Part shown: in pieces, positions 7,404-14,207 of the stretch
Layout of the letters: the number at the start of each line of letters is the position of its first letter
How positions within the stretch are numbered: position 1 is the first letter of the stretch
Assembly: GCA_964593885.1 (NCBI GenBank)
Contig: CAZQKK010000001.1
Coordinates: forward strand, 233,929-297,928
Direction: 5' to 3'
Source: an uncultured Candidatus Saccharibacteria bacterium
Lineage (GTDB): Bacteria > Patescibacteriota > UBA1384 > CAILIB01
DNA: 64,000 nt
Notes under the pieces: generated by a model
What the model saw: only the letters and a program-made list of their open reading frames with translations
What the model was told of the DNA's origin: nothing
Databases searched by the model: none
Made by a program: the position numbers and the translations under genes

Positions 7404-8855
7404 ATGCACACTACTTCCATTCAGAGAGAAATTGGTAAGGTTGCGCTCTACGGCGTACTCATTCTCGGTTTGGGAGTACTCGCAACTGCTTGCAGCAAGA
7501 CTCCAACCACCACTACCTCAACGAGTTCAGGTGTAAAAATTCGAATTTGGCGTACTGGCCAAAGCGAGGATGCACTTAAAGGTACCATCAACCAGTTCAA
7601 AGGCAAGAACCAGTCGGCTAACCTTACTATCACCTACGATAATCGCCCGATAGAAACCTACGAGTTAGATGCCCTCAAGTCACTCGCCGCGCGTACCGGT
7701 CCCGATATCTGGAGCATCCCAAACGATTGGCTTGGCGATCACATCCCAAGAATCCAGCCACTCCCCGATAACTACTTCTTCCCGCTTGATGGTAAAGGGA
7801 AACGTCAAACTACTGGGCCAACCCCCGCTGAACAAGTTAAGGAACTCTACCCTGAAGGTATTGCTGAACAGCTTATCACTAGCACACCTGATGGGAAAAC
7901 GAGTGTTCTAGGACTTCCTACAAACGTTGATAGCCTCCGTCTCTACTACAACCGCGAGCTCCTCAGTGCTGCTGGCGTGGAGTACCAGAAGAGCCTCGGT
8001 CCTGACGTGAAATCAGAGGTCTACACCCCGGTTAAGCAGCTCTTGAATAAACCCCCTGCTACTTGGGGAGATGTCCTTGAGATGGAGAAGTATGTCACAA
8101 AGCTAGATGGCACAAATGTTGTCCGTTCCACCATTGCTTTCGGAACAGCTGATAACGTAAGCCGATCTGCTGATATAGTCAGTCTCCTGATCCTCCAGAA
8201 TGGTGCAAAAGTTGTGAGCACTGATAGGAAAAATGCACTATTCCACATCCCAACAACCAGCCCTAGTGGCGTTGTAGTTTCGCCTGGAGAGCTCGCCCTA
8301 GACTTCTACGCATCCTTCTCAAATCCTGCTCGAGCAAGCTACACCTGGAACCCCTCAATGCCTCAAGATATCGACGCTTTTGGTCAGGGTCGAGTAGCAA
8401 TGGTAATTGCTTTCTCAGACTTTGGTGATCAGCTCAAGGTGAAGTACCCAAAGTTTAGGTTTGAAAAAGCCGCTGTTCCTCAAAACTCGGTAACCCAAGA
8501 ACCGGTAAACCTCATTAAGTTCAGTATCGAGACAGTAACAAAGACCGCTGACAATACCGCCGCCACGTTTGCCTTTTTCCCCTACTACACTGCCCAGAAC
8601 AATGCAGTAAACATTTCAGGGCAAGTTGGCCTTTCAAGTCCATTCACCCAGGATCTTATCAAGAAGAAAGACGACCCAATTGTTAACCAAATTGTGACTG
8701 GAAAGAGCATCTTTAAGCGCTCACGCACCCAGTTTGACGCATCTTTCCGCCAAATGATAATTGATGTTAGCCAAAACGGACTCACAAACGACAAGGCACT
8801 TGATGCTGCTGCTGAAAGGATCAACGTTATCCTTCAAGCAGATAACCAGCTATGA
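7404..8855 (+). CDS. Extracellular solute-binding (ABC-type) lipoprotein-like protein
   Basis: Signal peptide with Cys (LATAC). Size and composition of a family-1 solute-binding protein. Stop overlaps the next start (ATGA). Confidence 0.5.
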   Translation: MHTTSIQREIGKVALYGVLILGLGVLATACSKTPTTTTSTSSGVKIRIWRTGQSEDALKGTINQFKGKNQSANLTITYDNRPIETYELDALKSLAARTGPDIWSIPNDWLGDHIPRIQPLPDNYFFPLDGKGKRQTTGPTPAEQVKELYPEGIAEQLITSTPDGKTSVLGLPTNVDSLRLYYNRELLSAAGVEYQKSLGPDVKSEVYTPVKQLLNKPPATWGDVLEMEKYVTKLDGTNVVRSTIAFGTADNVSRSADIVSLLILQNGAKVVSTDRKNALFHIPTTSPSGVVVSPGELALDFYASFSNPARASYTWNPSMPQDIDAFGQGRVAMVIAFSDFGDQLKVKYPKFRFEKAAVPQNSVTQEPVNLIKFSIETVTKTADNTAATFAFFPYYTAQNNAVNISGQVGLSSPFTQDLIKKKDDPIVNQIVTGKSIFKRSRTQFDASFRQMIIDVSQNGLTNDKALDAAAERINVILQADNQL

Positions 8856-9172
8856 CGTCACTATTTACCATTGCCGTCGCCAAAGCCGCAGATGGTTTAT
8901 CGGTGAATACCGATAAACTCAACGGAGGTGATGCGAGTGCTGCTGCTGGTGAATTCCTCAACCACATTGTCGAAATCCTCCTAGTTCTTGCCATCCCACT
9001 CGCCATTCTCTCAGTAGTCTATGCGGCTTTTTCCCTGATACGTTCGCAGGGTAAACCTGAAGGGTATGCTAACGCAAAGAAGTACATTACCTATGTAGTT
9101 ATTGGTATCTTCTTTATCGTTTTTGCAGGAATTCTCGTTCGTACTGTCTACAGCCTATTTGCAAAAGTTTGA
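8852..9172 (+). CDS. VirB2/TrbC-like pilin family small membrane protein (paralogue 1 of tandem array)
   Basis: 106 aa. Two TM helices separated by a charged loop (SQGKPEGYANAKKY). ATGA start/stop overlap with the upstream gene. Confidence 0.5.
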   Translation: MTSLFTIAVAKAADGLSVNTDKLNGGDASAAAGEFLNHIVEILLVLAIPLAILSVVYAAFSLIRSQGKPEGYANAKKYITYVVIGIFFIVFAGILVRTVYSLFAKV

Positions 9173-9275
9173 GGGAAACGTGAAAAGTACCCGCCACACA
9201 TTTCTGGGGAAAAAGATCCCTACTCCTCACCTGCTAGGAGTTGTAAAACGCAAACCAAAGTTTGGATCATCTTGG

Positions 9276-9809
9276 ATGCTCCTTTTCTCTGCACCCGTGC
9301 TCCTCTTCCTAGGACTCTCACTCACCACTCCTTTATCTAGTAGTAACCAGGGTACTGGCAAGCAGAGCAGCGACGTACTCCGTCAGGTACGAGTCTTTGG
9401 CACGGCTTCATCAACGGTGAAGTCATGCGACGAGATAAATCTTGCCAGCGTGAAGCTATTTCCACTCATACCCGCGGAAATTAGGAGTACCGCAGAAGGT
9501 GGTTGTAACCCACAGACCTGGAATAGGAGGATTTTCGTATTCTTGGCTTACAAGCTTCTAGGAGTACTCAACTACCTTGCGGGCGCAATTGCAATCACCG
9601 CAACAATTTTCGGTGGTATATTGTACCTCACAGGATTCGCAAGTGAAGCAAATATTAAGAAGGCAAAATCGGTGATTATTGGTGCCTACATAGGTTTCGC
9701 CATTGTGCTGCTAGCCCGCCTACTCGTACAAGGGTCTTTCTTCCTCTTTGGCGATGGAAATACCGACTTTAGTAATTCTTTTGAGGACAAAACGGAGGTT
9801 CAAAAGTGA
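9276..9809 (+). CDS. VirB2/TrbC-like pilin family protein (paralogue 2)
   Basis: Start chosen at internal Met (MLLFSAPVLLFLGLSL signal peptide). The track ORF 9102-9809 overlaps the previous gene. C-terminal two-TM core GILYLTGFASEANIKKAKSVIIGAYIGFAIV. Confidence 0.5.
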   Translation: MLLFSAPVLLFLGLSLTTPLSSSNQGTGKQSSDVLRQVRVFGTASSTVKSCDEINLASVKLFPLIPAEIRSTAEGGCNPQTWNRRIFVFLAYKLLGVLNYLAGAIAITATIFGGILYLTGFASEANIKKAKSVIIGAYIGFAIVLLARLLVQGSFFLFGDGNTDFSNSFEDKTEVQK

Positions 9810-10252
9810 AACAACTGATACTGTACCTAGCTATTACCGTTTCGGCATGCGGCATGTTTCTATTCCTCTATCCAACAGCCTCTCACGCATCAACTAGTAG
9901 TAGCCACCAAAACACCTCAAGACTAGCTATCGACATTATTCCCACTCCGGGGGAAGTTGGCTCAAATCCAGACAGGCCAACCCAACAGATAGTGCCGACA
10001 AATAGCCTTGGTACAATCTTAGATGGCCTCTGGAACCGAGGCATGAGGATTGTCTACATTCTCATTTCTATCTACGCCCTAATTACCCTTACCCAAGCAG
10101 CCCTACGGTACGGGAGTGCTCAAGGTGACGCAAAGCGAGTTGCAGAAGCAAGAACTGCAATTGTCCAAACCGTCCTAGGGATCGCCCTTCTGACTGCAAG
10201 TTTCATGGTAGTAAGCCTAATCTGGGCGTTTGCGAAACGACTCTTAGTCTAG
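9806..10252 (+). CDS. VirB2/TrbC-like pilin family protein (paralogue 3)
   Basis: Signal peptide, then ISIYALITLTQAALRYGSAQGDAKRVAEARTAIVQTVLGIALL two-TM core. 4-nt overlap with the upstream gene. Confidence 0.5.
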   Translation: MKQLILYLAITVSACGMFLFLYPTASHASTSSSHQNTSRLAIDIIPTPGEVGSNPDRPTQQIVPTNSLGTILDGLWNRGMRIVYILISIYALITLTQAALRYGSAQGDAKRVAEARTAIVQTVLGIALLTASFMVVSLIWAFAKRLLV

Positions 10253-10329
10253 TTCTATTTGACAGTATCTTTCATGCACCCCTACAATGTAACTACAACC
10301 TGTTTACGTTTTAACCTTTAAGGAGGCTT

Positions 10330-10734
10330 ATGAATCTCTCCCGCACTTCAGCAAAAATATCAGCTGCTATTACAACCTCCCTCCTCTTGGGTGTAAGTAG
10401 CATCCACGCTGCCGCTCCACCATCAATTCAGCCAGAAGGTTCTATTGATAAAACGTTTGATTTTGTAAAATTCTTTACCAATGGTATTGGCAGCATTATT
10501 AACATCATTTTCTTCTTGGCTGGAGCTGCGGCCATCATCTACCTCATCTGGGCAGGTATCAAGTACATTACTGCAGGTGGCGATACAAAGAAGGCTGGTG
10601 AGGCACGCACAGCGATTATTAATGCCGTAATCGGTATTGCAGTTATTGTAGGTGCTTACACCCTGATCAACATCGCTTTCGGTATCAATAAGACGGTTAA
10701 CAGCATTCAAAGCAGTGAAGCAACTTTCCAGTAG
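10330..10734 (+). CDS. VirB2/TrbC-like pilin family protein (paralogue 4)
   Basis: AAGGAGG RBS upstream. Signal peptide. Core IYLIWAGIKYITAGGDTKKAGEARTAIINAVIGIAVIV. Followed by a strong terminator. Confidence 0.55.
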   Translation: MNLSRTSAKISAAITTSLLLGVSSIHAAAPPSIQPEGSIDKTFDFVKFFTNGIGSIINIIFFLAGAAAIIYLIWAGIKYITAGGDTKKAGEARTAIINAVIGIAVIVGAYTLINIAFGINKTVNSIQSSEATFQ

Positions 10735-13643: not shown

Positions 13644-13670
13644 ACGCTCGCAGAAACTAGCACCAGCAAT

Positions 13671-13692
13671 CCAGGATACCCCTGGTTTTTTT
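13671..13692 (+). terminator. Rho-independent terminator after kefB-like gene
   Basis: CCAGGatacCCCTGG hairpin followed by TTTTTTT. Confidence 0.6.
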
Positions 13693-13802
13693 ATTTTTAC
13701 AGGTTATTGTTCAGTATTTCATATATCATCATATGTATTGGTATCCCTGTTCGGAAAACTCTTTCCCCAACTTTTTCCACATGTGGATAAGTTGTGCACA
13801 AT

Positions 13803-13829
13803 TGCTCCATTTACCCCATGGAGTATACT
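13803..13829 (+). promoter_or_regulatory. Putative sigma70-like promoter giving a leaderless transcript
   Basis: TTGCTC, 15 nt spacer, TATACT. The ATG at 13836 lies 6 nt after the -10 box with no Shine-Dalgarno sequence. Confidence 0.35.
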
Positions 13830-13835
13830 GATCAT

Positions 13836-14207
13836 ATGGCTGATAACCTCTTTTCTTCTGGGACTACCATTACCCCTGATTCAGGGACATCTCTCTTTTC
13901 TCCTTTTTCGTTTTTTAGCGGGTCGGACCCTCTTTCAATCGTTTATAATAATGCAATAAATTGGCTTTTTTCAGCTGTAGGCGCTGCTTTAATTGCCTAC
14001 CTTATTTGGGCAGGCATTAAGTACATCACTGCGGGAGGCGATCCTAAGAAGGCTGGTGATGCGAAATCTAGCGTAATAAACGCTGCTATCGGTATTCTTA
14101 TCTTTATCAGTATTTACACTCTCCTAAGTATCGGGATTGGCCTTGGGAATGCTGGACGATCAATCGAGACTGGTCAGATAACCATCCCTCCTGCCACGAA
14201 AAAGTGA
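13836..14207 (+). CDS. VirB2/TrbC-like pilin family protein (dispersed paralogue 5)
   Basis: Start chosen at the Met downstream of the predicted promoter; the track ORF begins at 13794. Core IAYLIWAGIKYITAGGDPKKAGDAKSSVINAAIGILIFI is near-identical to the 10330-10734 paralogue. Confidence 0.45.
   Translation: MADNLFSSGTTITPDSGTSLFSPFSFFSGSDPLSIVYNNAINWLFSAVGAALIAYLIWAGIKYITAGGDPKKAGDAKSSVINAAIGILIFISIYTLLSIGIGLGNAGRSIETGQITIPPATKK

What the first reader, a model, noticed from the sequence alone, without database searches (positions are those of the whole stretch)
8852..14207. Expanded family of VirB2/TrbC-like pilin paralogues: four in tandem plus two dispersed copies
Four consecutive small genes (8852-9172, 9276-9809, 9806-10252, 10330-10734), a fifth at 13836-14207 and a sixth inside the T4SS-like module (56056-56496) all encode proteins with a signal peptide or N-region and two TM helices around a basic loop. 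Two of them share an almost identical core (IIYLIWAGIKYITAGGDTKKAGEARTAIINAVIGIAVIV versus IAYLIWAGIKYITAGGDPKKAGDAKSSVINAAIGILIFI) while the N-terminal regions differ. That pattern suggests diversification of exposed parts on a conserved polymerisation core, as in antigenic or phase variation or host-range variation of a pilus. The tandem copies are translationally coupled by start/stop overlaps and end at a strong terminator.
Basis: seen in the sequence. Interest (0 to 1): 0.6.

Follow-up and report, generated by a model that had tools for sequence, protein, structure and literature searches.

The report
Conserved VirB2-like pilin set in Patescibacteria
The six small genes are real members of the type IV secretion pilin-like family already known to form gene arrays in ultrasmall Patescibacteria, but they are an old, fixed set of distinct subunits rather than a variable repertoire, and they sit in a widely conserved operon behind a sugar-binding-type lipoprotein gene.

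Summary
The window has exactly six paralogues with a two-helix membrane hairpin and a basic loop. Three pass the Pfam PF18895 (T4SS_pilin) cut-off, and the other three are weaker hits or are supported through their orthologues.

Corrections: gene 2 starts at GTG 9180, not 9276. The "almost identical" core is 27/39 residues. Gene 4 has its own conserved promoter.

The VirB2-like reading is supported, but such arrays are already published for Patescibacteria (2020, 2023, 2025).

The variation idea is not supported:
- Each copy's nearest relative is the same-position gene in other genomes (55-93% against 12-32% between in-genome copies).
- Copy number is stable (4+1).
- dN/dS is 0.03-0.11.
- There are no recombination tracts or simple-sequence repeats.
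- In Southlakia epibionticum six such pilins are each essential.

Beyond the finding:
- All 15 loci fetched from other Patescibacteria classes by homology to the upstream MalE-like lipoprotein alone carry pilin ORFs downstream. HSP20, a GalU-like gene and ComF are often upstream.
- Elsewhere, units of the gene-4 type are fused into "polypilins".

This is a member of a known kind, of moderate interest.

The parts
4030..4662 (-). ComF/GntX-like phosphoribosyltransferase gene. It is a recurrent neighbour of the array.
   Evidence: NCBIfam comF 68.7 bits, below cut-off. A homologue lies upstream of the SBP gene in 7 of 15 distant loci. ComF also lies next to the pilin array in S. epibionticum.
6074..6469 (+). 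HSP20 small heat-shock protein gene, first gene of the conserved string.
   Evidence: Pfam HSP20 53.9 bits. Upstream of the SBP gene in 9 of 15 distant loci. The Hsp20 next to the pilins in S. epibionticum is essential.
6505..7395 (+). GalU-like sugar-1-phosphate nucleotidyltransferase gene, 8 nt upstream of the SBP gene.
   Evidence: Pfam NTP_transferase. NCBIfam galU 286.6 bits, cut-off 326.8. Directly upstream of the SBP gene in 10 of 15 distant loci.
7404..8855 (+). MalE-like solute-binding-protein-fold lipoprotein, with a signal peptide and a nearly invariant Cys30. Its stop overlaps the p1 start (ATGA).
   Evidence: AF2 model pLDDT 92.1. Foldseek hits oligosaccharide-binding SBPs at E 1e-18 to 1e-21. 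Most orthologues carry PF01547/PF13416. Cys30 is invariant in the 5-sequence alignment and present in at least 90% of 55 sequences. Pilin ORFs follow it in 15 of 15 loci found by its homology alone.
8852..9172 (+). p1, 106-aa pilin-like protein with no classical signal peptide.
   Evidence: PF18895 38.5 bits; PF04956 25.1 bits, E 2e-5. Positional orthologues 37-83% core identity. Omega 0.034.
9180..9809 (+). p2, 209-aa pilin-like protein with a corrected GTG start. It has a basic N-terminus, a membrane-spanning segment, a roughly 70-aa external region with two conserved Cys, and then the hairpin core.
   Evidence: PF18895 26.2 bits, E 8e-6. Start supported by orthologue alignment and a Shine-Dalgarno sequence. 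Omega 0.060, core 0.006.
9806..10252 (+). p3, 148-aa pilin-like protein with a GTG start overlapping the p2 stop, a signal peptide with a conserved Cys, and a Ser/Thr-rich N-region.
   Evidence: PF18895 15.6 bits here. The L003 orthologue has an unmarked (E <= 1e-5) PF18895 hit on record and the L002 orthologue a weak one. GGAGG Shine-Dalgarno. Omega 0.082.
10259..10288 (+). Sigma-70-type promoter for p4 (TTGACA-18-TACAAT), followed by an AAGGAGG Shine-Dalgarno.
   Evidence: 11/12 consensus match. Both hexamers and the Shine-Dalgarno are invariant in four genomes, two of which (L002, L003) have saturated synonymous sites against the window.
10330..10734 (+). p4, 134-aa candidate major subunit. 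It has a Sec signal peptide with an A-x-A site conserved in orthologues, a variable external N-segment, and a nearly invariant hairpin core.
   Evidence: PF18895 38.5 bits. Core 87-93% identical in genomes where the SBP is 56-80% identical. AF2 hairpin H45-81/H86-122 with pLDDT above 90. Units of this type are fused sixfold at the same array position in L029.
10752..10779 (.). Intrinsic terminator ending the array, placed between p4 and the convergent DivIC-like gene.
   Evidence: 12-bp stem with 5 G-C pairs, 4-nt loop and a T run. Seen as inverted repeat I3.
13776..13829 (+). Conserved upstream region of p5. It holds the palindrome TCCACAnGTGGATAA and a TTGCTC-16-TATACT promoter-like pair that ends 6 nt before the ATG, which may give a leaderless mRNA.
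   Evidence: Conserved blocks in a four-genome alignment and the sequence itself. The function is inferred.
13836..14207 (+). p5, 123-aa monocistronic p4-like paralogue without a signal peptide. It is the fastest-evolving copy.
   Evidence: PF18895 47.8 bits. 56% core identity to p4 against 64-74% to its own orthologues. Omega 0.110.
52906..53418 (+). PrgI (VirB3-like) two-TM protein of the T4SS module.
   Evidence: Pfam PrgI 36.5 bits. Two TM segments.
53415..54251 (+). TrsD-like protein, corresponding to a stand-alone N-terminal VirB4 domain.
   Evidence: NCBIfam TrsD E 7e-8 and matches to VirB4 N-terminal regions, all below cut-offs.
54255..56051 (+). VirB4-type ATPase of the monoderm (CD1110) family.
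   Evidence: NCBIfam conju_CD1110 365.9 bits, cut-off 325. Pfam P-loop_TraG.
56056..56496 (+). p6, 146-aa pilin-like protein inside the T4SS module, with a signal peptide and a two-Cys external region.
   Evidence: PF18895 24.2 bits, E 3.5e-5. Starts 4 nt after the VirB4 stop. Three hydrophobic segments.
56498..61036 (+). Three bitopic envelope proteins downstream of p6: a 419-aa beta-rich protein, a 680-aa protein with a Peptidase_C39_2 domain (probable wall hydrolase), and a 415-aa protein.
   Evidence: Pfam. One TM segment each. A comparable hydrolase position exists in the S. epibionticum cluster.

Best explanation
The window is chromosomal DNA of an uncultivated Patescibacteria (CPR) bacterium. 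Its six small genes encode VirB2-like 'T4SS_pilin' (PF18895) proteins. Each is a two-helix membrane hairpin whose basic loop faces the cytoplasm before assembly and whose N- and C-termini are outside.

They are not alternative versions of one pilin. They are six ancient, non-interchangeable subunit types that are inferred to assemble together, using the VirB4/TrsD/PrgI machine encoded at 52.9-61 kb, into the pilus-like or channel-like surface structure that this phylum is thought to need for living on host cells.

Inferred division of labour:
- p4 is the abundant polymerising (major) subunit. It has its own conserved strong promoter and ribosome-binding site, a cleavable Sec signal peptide and a nearly invariant core.
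- p1 to p3 are low-stoichiometry minor or initiating subunits. They are translationally coupled to each other and to the upstream MalE-like lipoprotein gene.
- p6 is the machine-proximal subunit.
- p5 is an accessory, separately regulated p4-like subunit.

Shown: family membership, topology, orthology, purifying selection, promoter conservation and the operon link to the lipoprotein gene. Inferred: the actual filament, dependence on the T4SS, and the roles of the individual subunits.
For: Family: PF18895 hits for all six, three above the gathering score. All 28 homologues of p4 carry PF18895. 78 of 81 related ORFs hit PF18895 and 13 hit TrbC/VirB2. The family is very large, with 62,444 50%-identity cluster representatives at E<=0.001.

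Topology: two TM segments plus signal segments. AF2 gives a hairpin with pLDDT above 90.

T4SS in the same genome: PrgI, TrsD-like and CD1110-type VirB4, with p6 directly after VirB4.

Fixed, non-redundant set:
- Best match of every array copy is the same-position gene in other genomes: 55-93% core identity in L002, L003 and L006 for p1-p4, against 12-32% between in-genome copies (p4/p5 56%).
- The 4+1 arrangement is conserved in the window, L023, L002, L003, L006, L009 and L010, with 5+1 in L008.
- Omega is 0.03-0.11, and 0.006-0.066 for cores.
- There are no repeats or simple-sequence tracts.
- The 8.1-kb array region is identical in three assemblies of the sister species, and the part held in two shorter contigs is identical too.
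- In S. epibionticum the six array pilins SEML1_0014-0019 are each scored essential by Tn-seq (PMC10633639 supplement).

p4 as major subunit:
- Promoter and Shine-Dalgarno are invariant in four genomes, two of them with saturated synonymous sites.
- Its core is the most conserved.
- The A-x-A cleavage site is conserved.
- In L029 the fourth array position holds a single 552-aa protein made of six p4-like units.

Literature agrees that these arrays are VirB2-like pilins of an essential T4SS.
Against: - No pilus built from these proteins has been seen in any Patescibacterium. That statement comes from the papers read, not from a test here.
- The TrbC/VirB2 Pfam model stays below its cut-off (25.1 against 27.9).
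- A profile of p4 relatives finds no solved pilin by sequence. Foldseek of the p4 model against the PDB gives nothing below E 0.5. A helical hairpin is too simple to be diagnostic.
- The p1-p4 operon is 42-44 kb from the VirB4 module, and none of the 18 related loci checked has T4SS core genes within 10 kb. Dependence on the T4SS is therefore inference.
- dS is 1.2-1.9, near saturation. Episodic positive selection at a few exposed sites cannot be excluded. The N-terminal regions have 3.6 to 18 times the omega of the cores.
- Fusion proteins with 3-17 hairpin units would be polytopic membrane proteins. That fits a membrane-embedded assembly at least as well as an extracted filament.
Confidence: 0.6

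Rival explanations
1. The paralogues are a repertoire for antigenic, phase or host-range variation: alternative pilins with a common polymerisation core and diversified exposed parts, used one at a time or shuffled by recombination.
For: Exposed N- and C-terminal parts diverge faster than the cores. [quoted passage not shown] The p4/p5 pair shares a recognisable core, and p5 has a separate, possibly regulated promoter.
Against: Every copy has a positional orthologue that is much closer than any in-genome paralogue. Copy number is stable across species. Omega is far below 1 in all regions. There are no long identical tracts (p4/p5 reach 78% over 83 nt), no silent cassettes, no simple-sequence repeats and no invertible elements. 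Arrays are identical in independent assemblies of one species. Each of the six array pilins is individually essential in S. epibionticum.
Confidence: 0.08
2. The proteins are not filament subunits. They form a membrane-embedded hetero-oligomeric channel or platform that works with the co-transcribed MalE-like lipoprotein, for instance to take up or sense host-derived oligosaccharides, with or without the T4SS ATPase.
For: The lipoprotein gene overlaps the p1 start. It is followed by pilin ORFs in 15 of 15 loci found by its homology alone, across several Patescibacteria classes. It has a high-confidence oligosaccharide-SBP fold. No ABC ATPase lies within 10 kb in 18 loci. A GalU-like gene is its usual upstream neighbour. 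Natural fusions of 3-17 hairpin units exist, which would be polytopic membrane proteins. Reviews speculate about uptake through this T4SS.
Against: The family is homologous to VirB2/TrbC pilins. S. epibionticum has an essential pilin array but no PF01547/PF13416 protein in its annotation table, so the lipoprotein is not a general requirement. Gene linkage does not prove physical interaction. No transporter of this design is known to me.
Confidence: 0.2
3. The array encodes small Sec-secreted effector or toxin subunits exported by the T4SS, by analogy with the pertussis toxin ptx/ptl locus (McLean et al. 2020).
For: N-terminal signal peptides in p3, p4 and p6. The array-plus-T4SS arrangement was noted in TM7x.
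Against: Every protein keeps two further hydrophobic helices and matches a pilin family. There are no enzymatic domains. The similarity to S1 reported in that paper was 11%. Later papers re-interpret the array as pilins.
Confidence: 0.03
4. The genes encode an unrelated small membrane protein family such as holins or bacteriocin/immunity proteins.
For: Small size and two TM helices. A weak sub-threshold MatE hit for p1.
Against: No PHROGs hit for any copy. The best Pfam and NCBIfam matches are pilin or conjugal-transfer families. The genes lie in a chromosomal, syntenic, housekeeping context with no lysin or phage genes nearby.
Confidence: 0.02

Closest known systems
VirB2-like pilin arrays of Patescibacteria: S. 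epibionticum ML1 SEML1_0014-0019, the TM7x 'Sec-secreted array', and the 441 arrays surveyed by Quinonero-Coronel et al. 2025
   Same: Same Pfam family (PF18895). Tandem arrays of 2-11 divergent copies; the survey reports a mean of 25% identity, and here it is 12-32%. The chromosome carries a monoderm-type VirB4/PrgI/TrsD T4SS without a relaxase nearby. An extra dispersed copy is present. Hsp20, ComF and a glycosyltransferase are neighbours.
   Different: Here the four-gene array is 42-44 kb from virB4, and only one copy (p6) lies inside the T4SS module. The array is co-transcribed with a MalE-like lipoprotein gene and preceded by a GalU-like gene. S. epibionticum has no such SBP in its annotation table. 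The papers I read do not mention this link.
VirB2/TrbC T-pilins of Gram-negative T4SSs (Pfam PF04956)
   Same: Small size, two hydrophobic helices around a basic loop, a signal-peptide-bearing precursor in some copies, and sub-threshold but significant HMM similarity.
   Different: The score is below the family cut-off. The host is a monoderm with no VirB5, VirB7, VirB9 or VirB10 in the window. Multiple obligatory paralogues replace the single major pilin. There is no structural or sequence match to solved pilins.
VirB2 paralogue expansions in Anaplasma, Bartonella and Rickettsia
   Same: Several divergent virB2 copies in tandem in one genome (as cited in PMC12102498).
   Different: Those are interpreted as antigenic or host-interaction variants. 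The copies here are positional orthologues under purifying selection.
Major/minor pilin sets of type IV pili and type II secretion pseudopili (functional analogy only)
   Same: One highly expressed polymerising subunit plus several conserved low-abundance subunits encoded together. I propose this logic for p4 against p1-p3.
   Different: The protein fold and the assembly machine are unrelated. The analogy rests on my own knowledge and was not tested here.
Mbov_0395 family pilin-like conjugal transfer protein of Mycoplasma ICEs (NCBIfam NF045849)
   Same: Weak matches for p1, p4 and p5 (E 2e-4 to 8e-7). It is another VirB2-like protein in a wall-less or monoderm conjugation system.
   Different: All scores (21-29 bits) are below the 40-bit cut-off. 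It is a single-copy gene on a mobile element.

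Membership tests
Pfam PF18895 T4SS_pilin | HMM score at or above the gathering score (26.6 bits) | tested here: met
   p5 47.8, p1 38.5 and p4 38.5 bits.
Pfam PF18895 T4SS_pilin | Same criterion applied to the other three copies | tested here: inconclusive
   p2 26.2 bits (E 8e-6), p6 24.2 (E 3.5e-5) and p3 15.6 (E 0.017) are below the cut-off. The L003 orthologue of p3 has an unmarked PF18895 hit on record (E <= 1e-5). 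All three align with the family core.
Pfam PF18895 T4SS_pilin | Two hydrophobic helices forming a hairpin around a short basic loop | tested here: met
   Hydropathy segments in all six. AF2 model of p4 has H45-81 and H86-122 with pLDDT above 90.
Patescibacteria VirB2-like pilin array (as defined in PMC12102498) | At least two pilin genes in tandem or separated by one non-pilin gene, detected at i-E<0.001 with more than 50% HMM coverage | tested here: met
   p1, p2 and p4 meet the E-value and coverage criteria. p3 (E 0.017) sits between them.
Patescibacteria VirB2-like pilin array (as defined in PMC12102498) | Genome encodes the Patescibacteria/monoderm-type VirB4 together with PrgI and TrsD | tested here: met
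   conju_CD1110 365.9 bits, above the 325 cut-off; TrsD-like E 7e-8; PrgI 36.5 bits.
Patescibacteria VirB2-like pilin array (as defined in PMC12102498) | Low identity between copies of one array (published mean 25%, maximum 54%) | tested here: met
   12-32% within p1-p4, and 56% for p4 against the dispersed p5.
TrbC/VirB2 pilin (Pfam PF04956) | HMM score at or above the gathering score (27.9 bits) | tested here: not met
   The best scores are p1 25.1 bits and p4 22.1 bits. 13 of 81 related ORFs match at E<0.001.
TrbC/VirB2 pilin (Pfam PF04956) | Fold or sequence similarity to solved conjugative pilins | tested here: inconclusive
TrbC/VirB2 pilin (Pfam PF04956) | Polymerises into an extracellular pilus in a VirB4-dependent way | not testable with these tools
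   Needs microscopy and genetics.
Antigenic or phase-variable pilin repertoires | Lineage-specific recent duplication, or copy-number variation between strains | tested here: not met
   Positional orthology. A 4+1 arrangement in seven species-level genomes. Identical arrays in separate assemblies.
Antigenic or phase-variable pilin repertoires | Recombination substrates (silent cassettes, long identical tracts) or switch elements (simple-sequence repeats, invertible promoter) | tested here: not met
   The longest inter-copy repeat is 83 nt at 78%. No tandem repeats lie in or near the genes.
Antigenic or phase-variable pilin repertoires | Positive selection on exposed regions | tested here: not met
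   Omega is 0.06-0.16 for N-terminal regions and 0.13-0.23 for the computable C-tails. Caveat: dS is 1.2-1.9 and the values are regional averages.
ABC-importer solute-binding protein (SBP_bac_1), for the gene at 7404-8855 | Periplasmic-binding-protein type II fold of the MalE class | tested here: met
   AF2 pLDDT 92.1. Foldseek E 1e-18 to 1e-21 to maltodextrin-, sophoro-oligosaccharide- and mannobiose-binding proteins.
ABC-importer solute-binding protein (SBP_bac_1), for the gene at 7404-8855 | Encoded with its cognate ABC permease and ATPase genes | tested here: not met
   No ORF with a Walker A plus LSGGQ motif within 10 kb in 18 loci. Only two loci have possible permease-sized polytopic ORFs nearby.

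The most novel reading that the evidence does not exclude
The string [ComF]-HSP20-GalU-like-MalE-like lipoprotein-pilin array is conserved across Patescibacteria classes and is a functional unit. In this reading the VirB2-like subunits and an orphan oligosaccharide-binding lipoprotein work together. The binding protein could act as the tip or base receptor of the T4SS-associated structure, capturing host-cell-wall or host-derived glycans for attachment or uptake. That would give the essential but functionally unexplained Patescibacteria T4SS a concrete ligand-handling component. The natural 'polypilin' fusions would then mark the p4-type unit as the self-associating building block. The papers I could search do not describe this linkage.
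Probability: 0.2. Interest if true: 0.7.

Novelty: new member of a known kind. Interest (0 to 1): 0.4.

Why it matters
Patescibacteria make up a large share of bacterial diversity. The one genetic study available found their T4SS and its pilin array essential for epibiotic growth, yet its function is unknown.

This locus adds nothing new in kind, but the comparison sharpens the picture:
- The paralogues behave as a fixed multi-subunit kit rather than a variable repertoire, which argues against the host-adaptation or antigenic idea repeated in the literature.
- One position (p4) looks like the major subunit.
- Many lineages outside the cultured model tie the array to a sugar-binding-type lipoprotein and a UDP-sugar enzyme.

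These are concrete, testable leads for what the structure binds or transports.

Tried and rejected
1. dN/dS against L002, L003 and L006. Synonymous sites were saturated (pS about 0.75), so this was unusable. It was replaced by the sister species L023.
2. Sequence-profile search of solved structures with p4 relatives. No pilin was found, only chance hits to MacB and XplA.
4. Search for further paralogues in the window. None were found.
5. Search for T4SS core genes next to SBP-linked arrays in 22 loci. None were found.
6. Search for ABC ATPase genes next to the SBP gene. None were found.
7. PHROGs scan for holin-like families. No hits.
8. Class-level taxonomy through RecA. The nearest named relatives are only 'Patescibacteria group bacterium' (79%) and Gottesmanbacteria (72%), so the class is left undetermined. 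There is no rRNA in the window.
9. Literature search for a solute-binding-protein/pilin link. Nothing was found in the held library. This does not prove absence.
10. Rejected: p2 start at 9276, and the p5 starts at 13794 and 13818, which are not conserved.

Full report
**What is there**

Each protein has two strongly hydrophobic segments around a short K/R-rich loop. p2, p3, p4 and p6 carry an additional N-terminal hydrophobic segment. An HMM built from the six cores recovers exactly these six among 739 window ORFs of at least 40 codons, and the next best hit has E>1. That test is circular for the six themselves.

Pfam gives independent support. All six hit PF18895 (T4SS_pilin, gathering score 26.6): p5 47.8 bits, p1 38.5, p4 38.5, p2 26.2, p6 24.2 and p3 15.6. 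The classical TrbC/VirB2 model PF04956 gives sub-threshold hits for p1 (25.1 bits, E 2e-5) and p4 (22.1 bits), against a gathering score of 27.9. NCBIfam gives only weak hits to a Mycoplasma ICE pilin-like family. No phage or holin family matches.

**Corrections to the observation**

- p2 starts at GTG 9180. It is preceded by GAGGGA and lies 7 nt after the p1 stop.
- The p3 GTG start at 9806, overlapping the p2 stop, is supported by a GGAGG Shine-Dalgarno and by orthologues.
- p1 overlaps the stop of the upstream gene (ATGA).
- p3 and p4 are separated by 77 nt that hold TTGACA-18-TACAAT and AAGGAGG. Both hexamers and the Shine-Dalgarno are invariant in four genomes, two of which have saturated synonymous sites, so this looks like a real dedicated promoter.
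- The terminator at 10752-10779 is real.
- The quoted p4/p5 core is 27/39 identical (my count). It is 56% over the whole core and 78% over 83 nt of DNA. The two are related, not almost identical.

**Context**

The window is chromosomal. RecA, FtsK, ClpB-like, PNPase, S1, MurB and twelve tRNAs surround the loci. The organism is a Patescibacterium:
- The closest public relatives of the locus are titled Patescibacteria group MAGs.
- One relative carries a 'PAT' soil-metagenome locus tag.
- The nearest named RecA hits are a Patescibacteria group bacterium (79%) and Gottesmanbacteria (72%).

The class is not resolved.

The T4SS module at 52.9-61 kb contains, in order:
- a PrgI (VirB3-like) protein;
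- a TrsD-like stand-alone N-terminal VirB4 domain;
- a CD1110-family VirB4 (365.9 bits, cut-off 325);
- p6;
- three bitopic envelope proteins, one with a Peptidase_C39_2 domain.

This matches the monoderm-type system described for the phylum.

**Already known**

- McLean et al. 2020 described a conserved array of 4-6 small signal-peptide proteins next to the T4SS of Saccharibacteria.
- Wang et al. 2023 called them pilin subunits and found them essential. In their tables SEML1_0014-0019 all carry PF18895 and are each scored essential. A seventh, dispersed copy, SEML1_0024, is non-essential.
- Quinonero-Coronel et al. 2025 counted 441 arrays of 2-11 VirB2-like genes in 383 assemblies, with mean identity 25% and maximum 54%. 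They suggested a role in adapting to host strains.
- A 2025 review speculates that the pilus is a conduit for uptake from the host.

The finding is therefore a further instance of a described kind.

**Is it a variable repertoire?**

I fetched the locus from related genomes through exact-protein look-ups and through a genome scan. The order SBP-like gene, p1, p2, p3, p4, then convergent DivIC-like and CAP-domain genes, a Na+/H+ exchanger and p5 recurs in genomes whose SBP-like protein is 95%, 80%, 67% and 56% identical to the window's. With small changes it also recurs at 39-53% (L008-L010).

- **Orthology.** Each window copy is most similar to the same-position gene elsewhere. Core identities against L002/L003/L006 are p1 83/71/55%, p2 75/77/68%, p3 73/64/48% and p4 93/86/91%. 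p5 reaches 74% and 64% against its L002 and L003 orthologues. In-genome copies are only 12-32% identical, and p4/p5 are 56%. The duplications predate these lineages, and there is no sign of gene conversion.
- **Selection.** Against the sister species L023 (dS 1.2-1.9), omega is 0.034, 0.060, 0.082, 0.071 and 0.110 for p1 to p5. Cores give 0.006-0.066 and N-terminal regions 0.057-0.155. Neighbouring genes give 0.02-0.06.
- **Switch elements.** There are no tandem repeats, homopolymer switches, cassettes or invertible elements.
- **Within-species variation.** The 8.1-kb array region is identical in three assemblies of the sister species, and the part held in two shorter contigs is identical too. 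The overlapping array region is also identical in three assemblies of another species. Some of these assemblies may derive from related samples.

Together with the individual essentiality in S. epibionticum, this favours a kit of non-redundant subunits. It remains true that the external N- and C-terminal parts diverge much faster than the cores.

**Subunit roles (inferred)**

- **p4** has the conserved promoter and the best ribosome-binding site. It has a Sec signal peptide with a conserved A-x-A site and the most conserved core: 87-93% identity where the SBP-like protein is 56-80%. AF2 models it as a signal helix plus a long hairpin (H45-81, H86-122) with pLDDT above 90.
- **p1 to p3** are tightly coupled to each other and to the upstream gene.
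- **p2 and p6** carry a two-cysteine external region.
- **p5** is monocistronic behind a terminator. Its upstream region has a conserved palindrome and a -10-like TATACT ending 6 nt before the ATG.

I therefore propose p4 as the major polymerising subunit and the others as minor, initiating or machine-proximal subunits.

A whole-database profile search supports self-association of p4-type units. 62,444 cluster representatives match the family. The top hits are single polypeptides with 3-17 hairpin units. One of them, a protein of six p4-like units (37-48% identical to p4), occupies the fourth position of an otherwise similar array in L029. Such polytopic fusions also fit a membrane-embedded assembly, so I keep that as a rival.

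**Beyond the finding**

The gene upstream of p1 (7404-8855) encodes a lipoprotein with a nearly invariant Cys30. Its AF2 model (pLDDT 92.1) matches oligosaccharide-binding proteins of the MalE class at E 1e-18 to 1e-21. Most orthologues carry PF01547/PF13416.

Fifteen loci were fetched from GTDB genomes using only this protein, at 27-53% identity. They come from Nealsonbacteria, Berkelbacteria, Saccharibacteria, Uhrbacteria, Kaiserbacteria and unclassified lineages.
- All 15 have one to seven pilin-like ORFs downstream on the same strand. In 14 of them the first ORF starts within about 230 nt.
- 78 of the 81 ORFs independently hit PF18895.
- No ABC ATPase and no T4SS core gene lies within 10 kb.
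- A GalU-like gene (10 of 15), HSP20 (9 of 15) and ComF (7 of 15) recur upstream.
- Hsp20 and ComF also flank the S. epibionticum array, which lacks the SBP.

I found no mention of the SBP link in the papers read or searched. Conserved gene order across such distances suggests a functional tie, but the nature of that tie is speculation.

**Limits**

- Homology to solved pilins could not be shown by sequence profile or by Foldseek.
- The link of p1-p5 to the T4SS rests on family membership and on the S. epibionticum arrangement.
- dS is near saturation.
- No expression data were available.

**Verdict**

The pilin-family interpretation is supported and the variation hypothesis is not. This is a new member of a known kind, with a possibly undescribed conserved partner gene.

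Noticed in passing
window 4030-8855, and loci L008-L020: The string ComF-like, HSP20, GalU-like nucleotidyltransferase, MalE-like lipoprotein gene, then the pilin array recurs across several Patescibacteria classes. Counts upstream of the lipoprotein gene are GalU-like 10/15, HSP20 9/15 and ComF 7/15. The lipoprotein gene has no ABC transporter partner genes nearby.
   Followed up: partly
P0206, P0213-P0215 and others; L029 1777-3435: There are 'polypilins': single polypeptides made of 3-17 tandem PF18895-like hairpin units. One has 1775 aa with 17 units. In L029 a six-unit fusion sits at the fourth position of an array that is otherwise like the window's.
   Followed up: partly
window 13776-13829: A conserved palindrome TCCACAnGTGGATAA and a -10-like TATACT ending 6 nt before the p5 ATG suggest a regulated, possibly leaderless p5 transcript.
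   Followed up: partly
window 4711-5961 (-): A PMT-family (protein O-mannosyltransferase-like) membrane glycosyltransferase lies close to the array in all close relatives. A glycosyltransferase also lies next to the dispersed pilin in S. epibionticum. Several pilin N-regions are Ser/Thr-rich, so pilin glycosylation is conceivable.
   Followed up: no
window 53415-56051: VirB4 is split. A 278-aa TrsD-like protein matching VirB4 N-terminal regions precedes the 598-aa ATPase.
   Followed up: partly
window 47197-47273 (-): tRNA-Ile with anticodon UAU, which I believe is uncommon in bacteria (from my own knowledge, not checked here).
   Followed up: no
window 18000-22000: G+C drops to 0.40-0.41 against 0.48-0.51 in most of the window. 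The region includes a 585-aa ORF (19425-21182) with no Pfam or NCBIfam match.
   Followed up: no
window 777-3176: A 799-aa protein has a weak Peptidase_M11 (gametolysin) metalloprotease match, which is unusual for bacteria.
   Followed up: no
window 14160-14207: The 3' end of p5 overlaps the 3' end of the convergent DJ-1/PfpI-family gene by 48 nt.
   Followed up: no
window 38021-38844: A cluster of five tRNA genes (Gly, Cys, Leu, Phe, Val).
   Followed up: no
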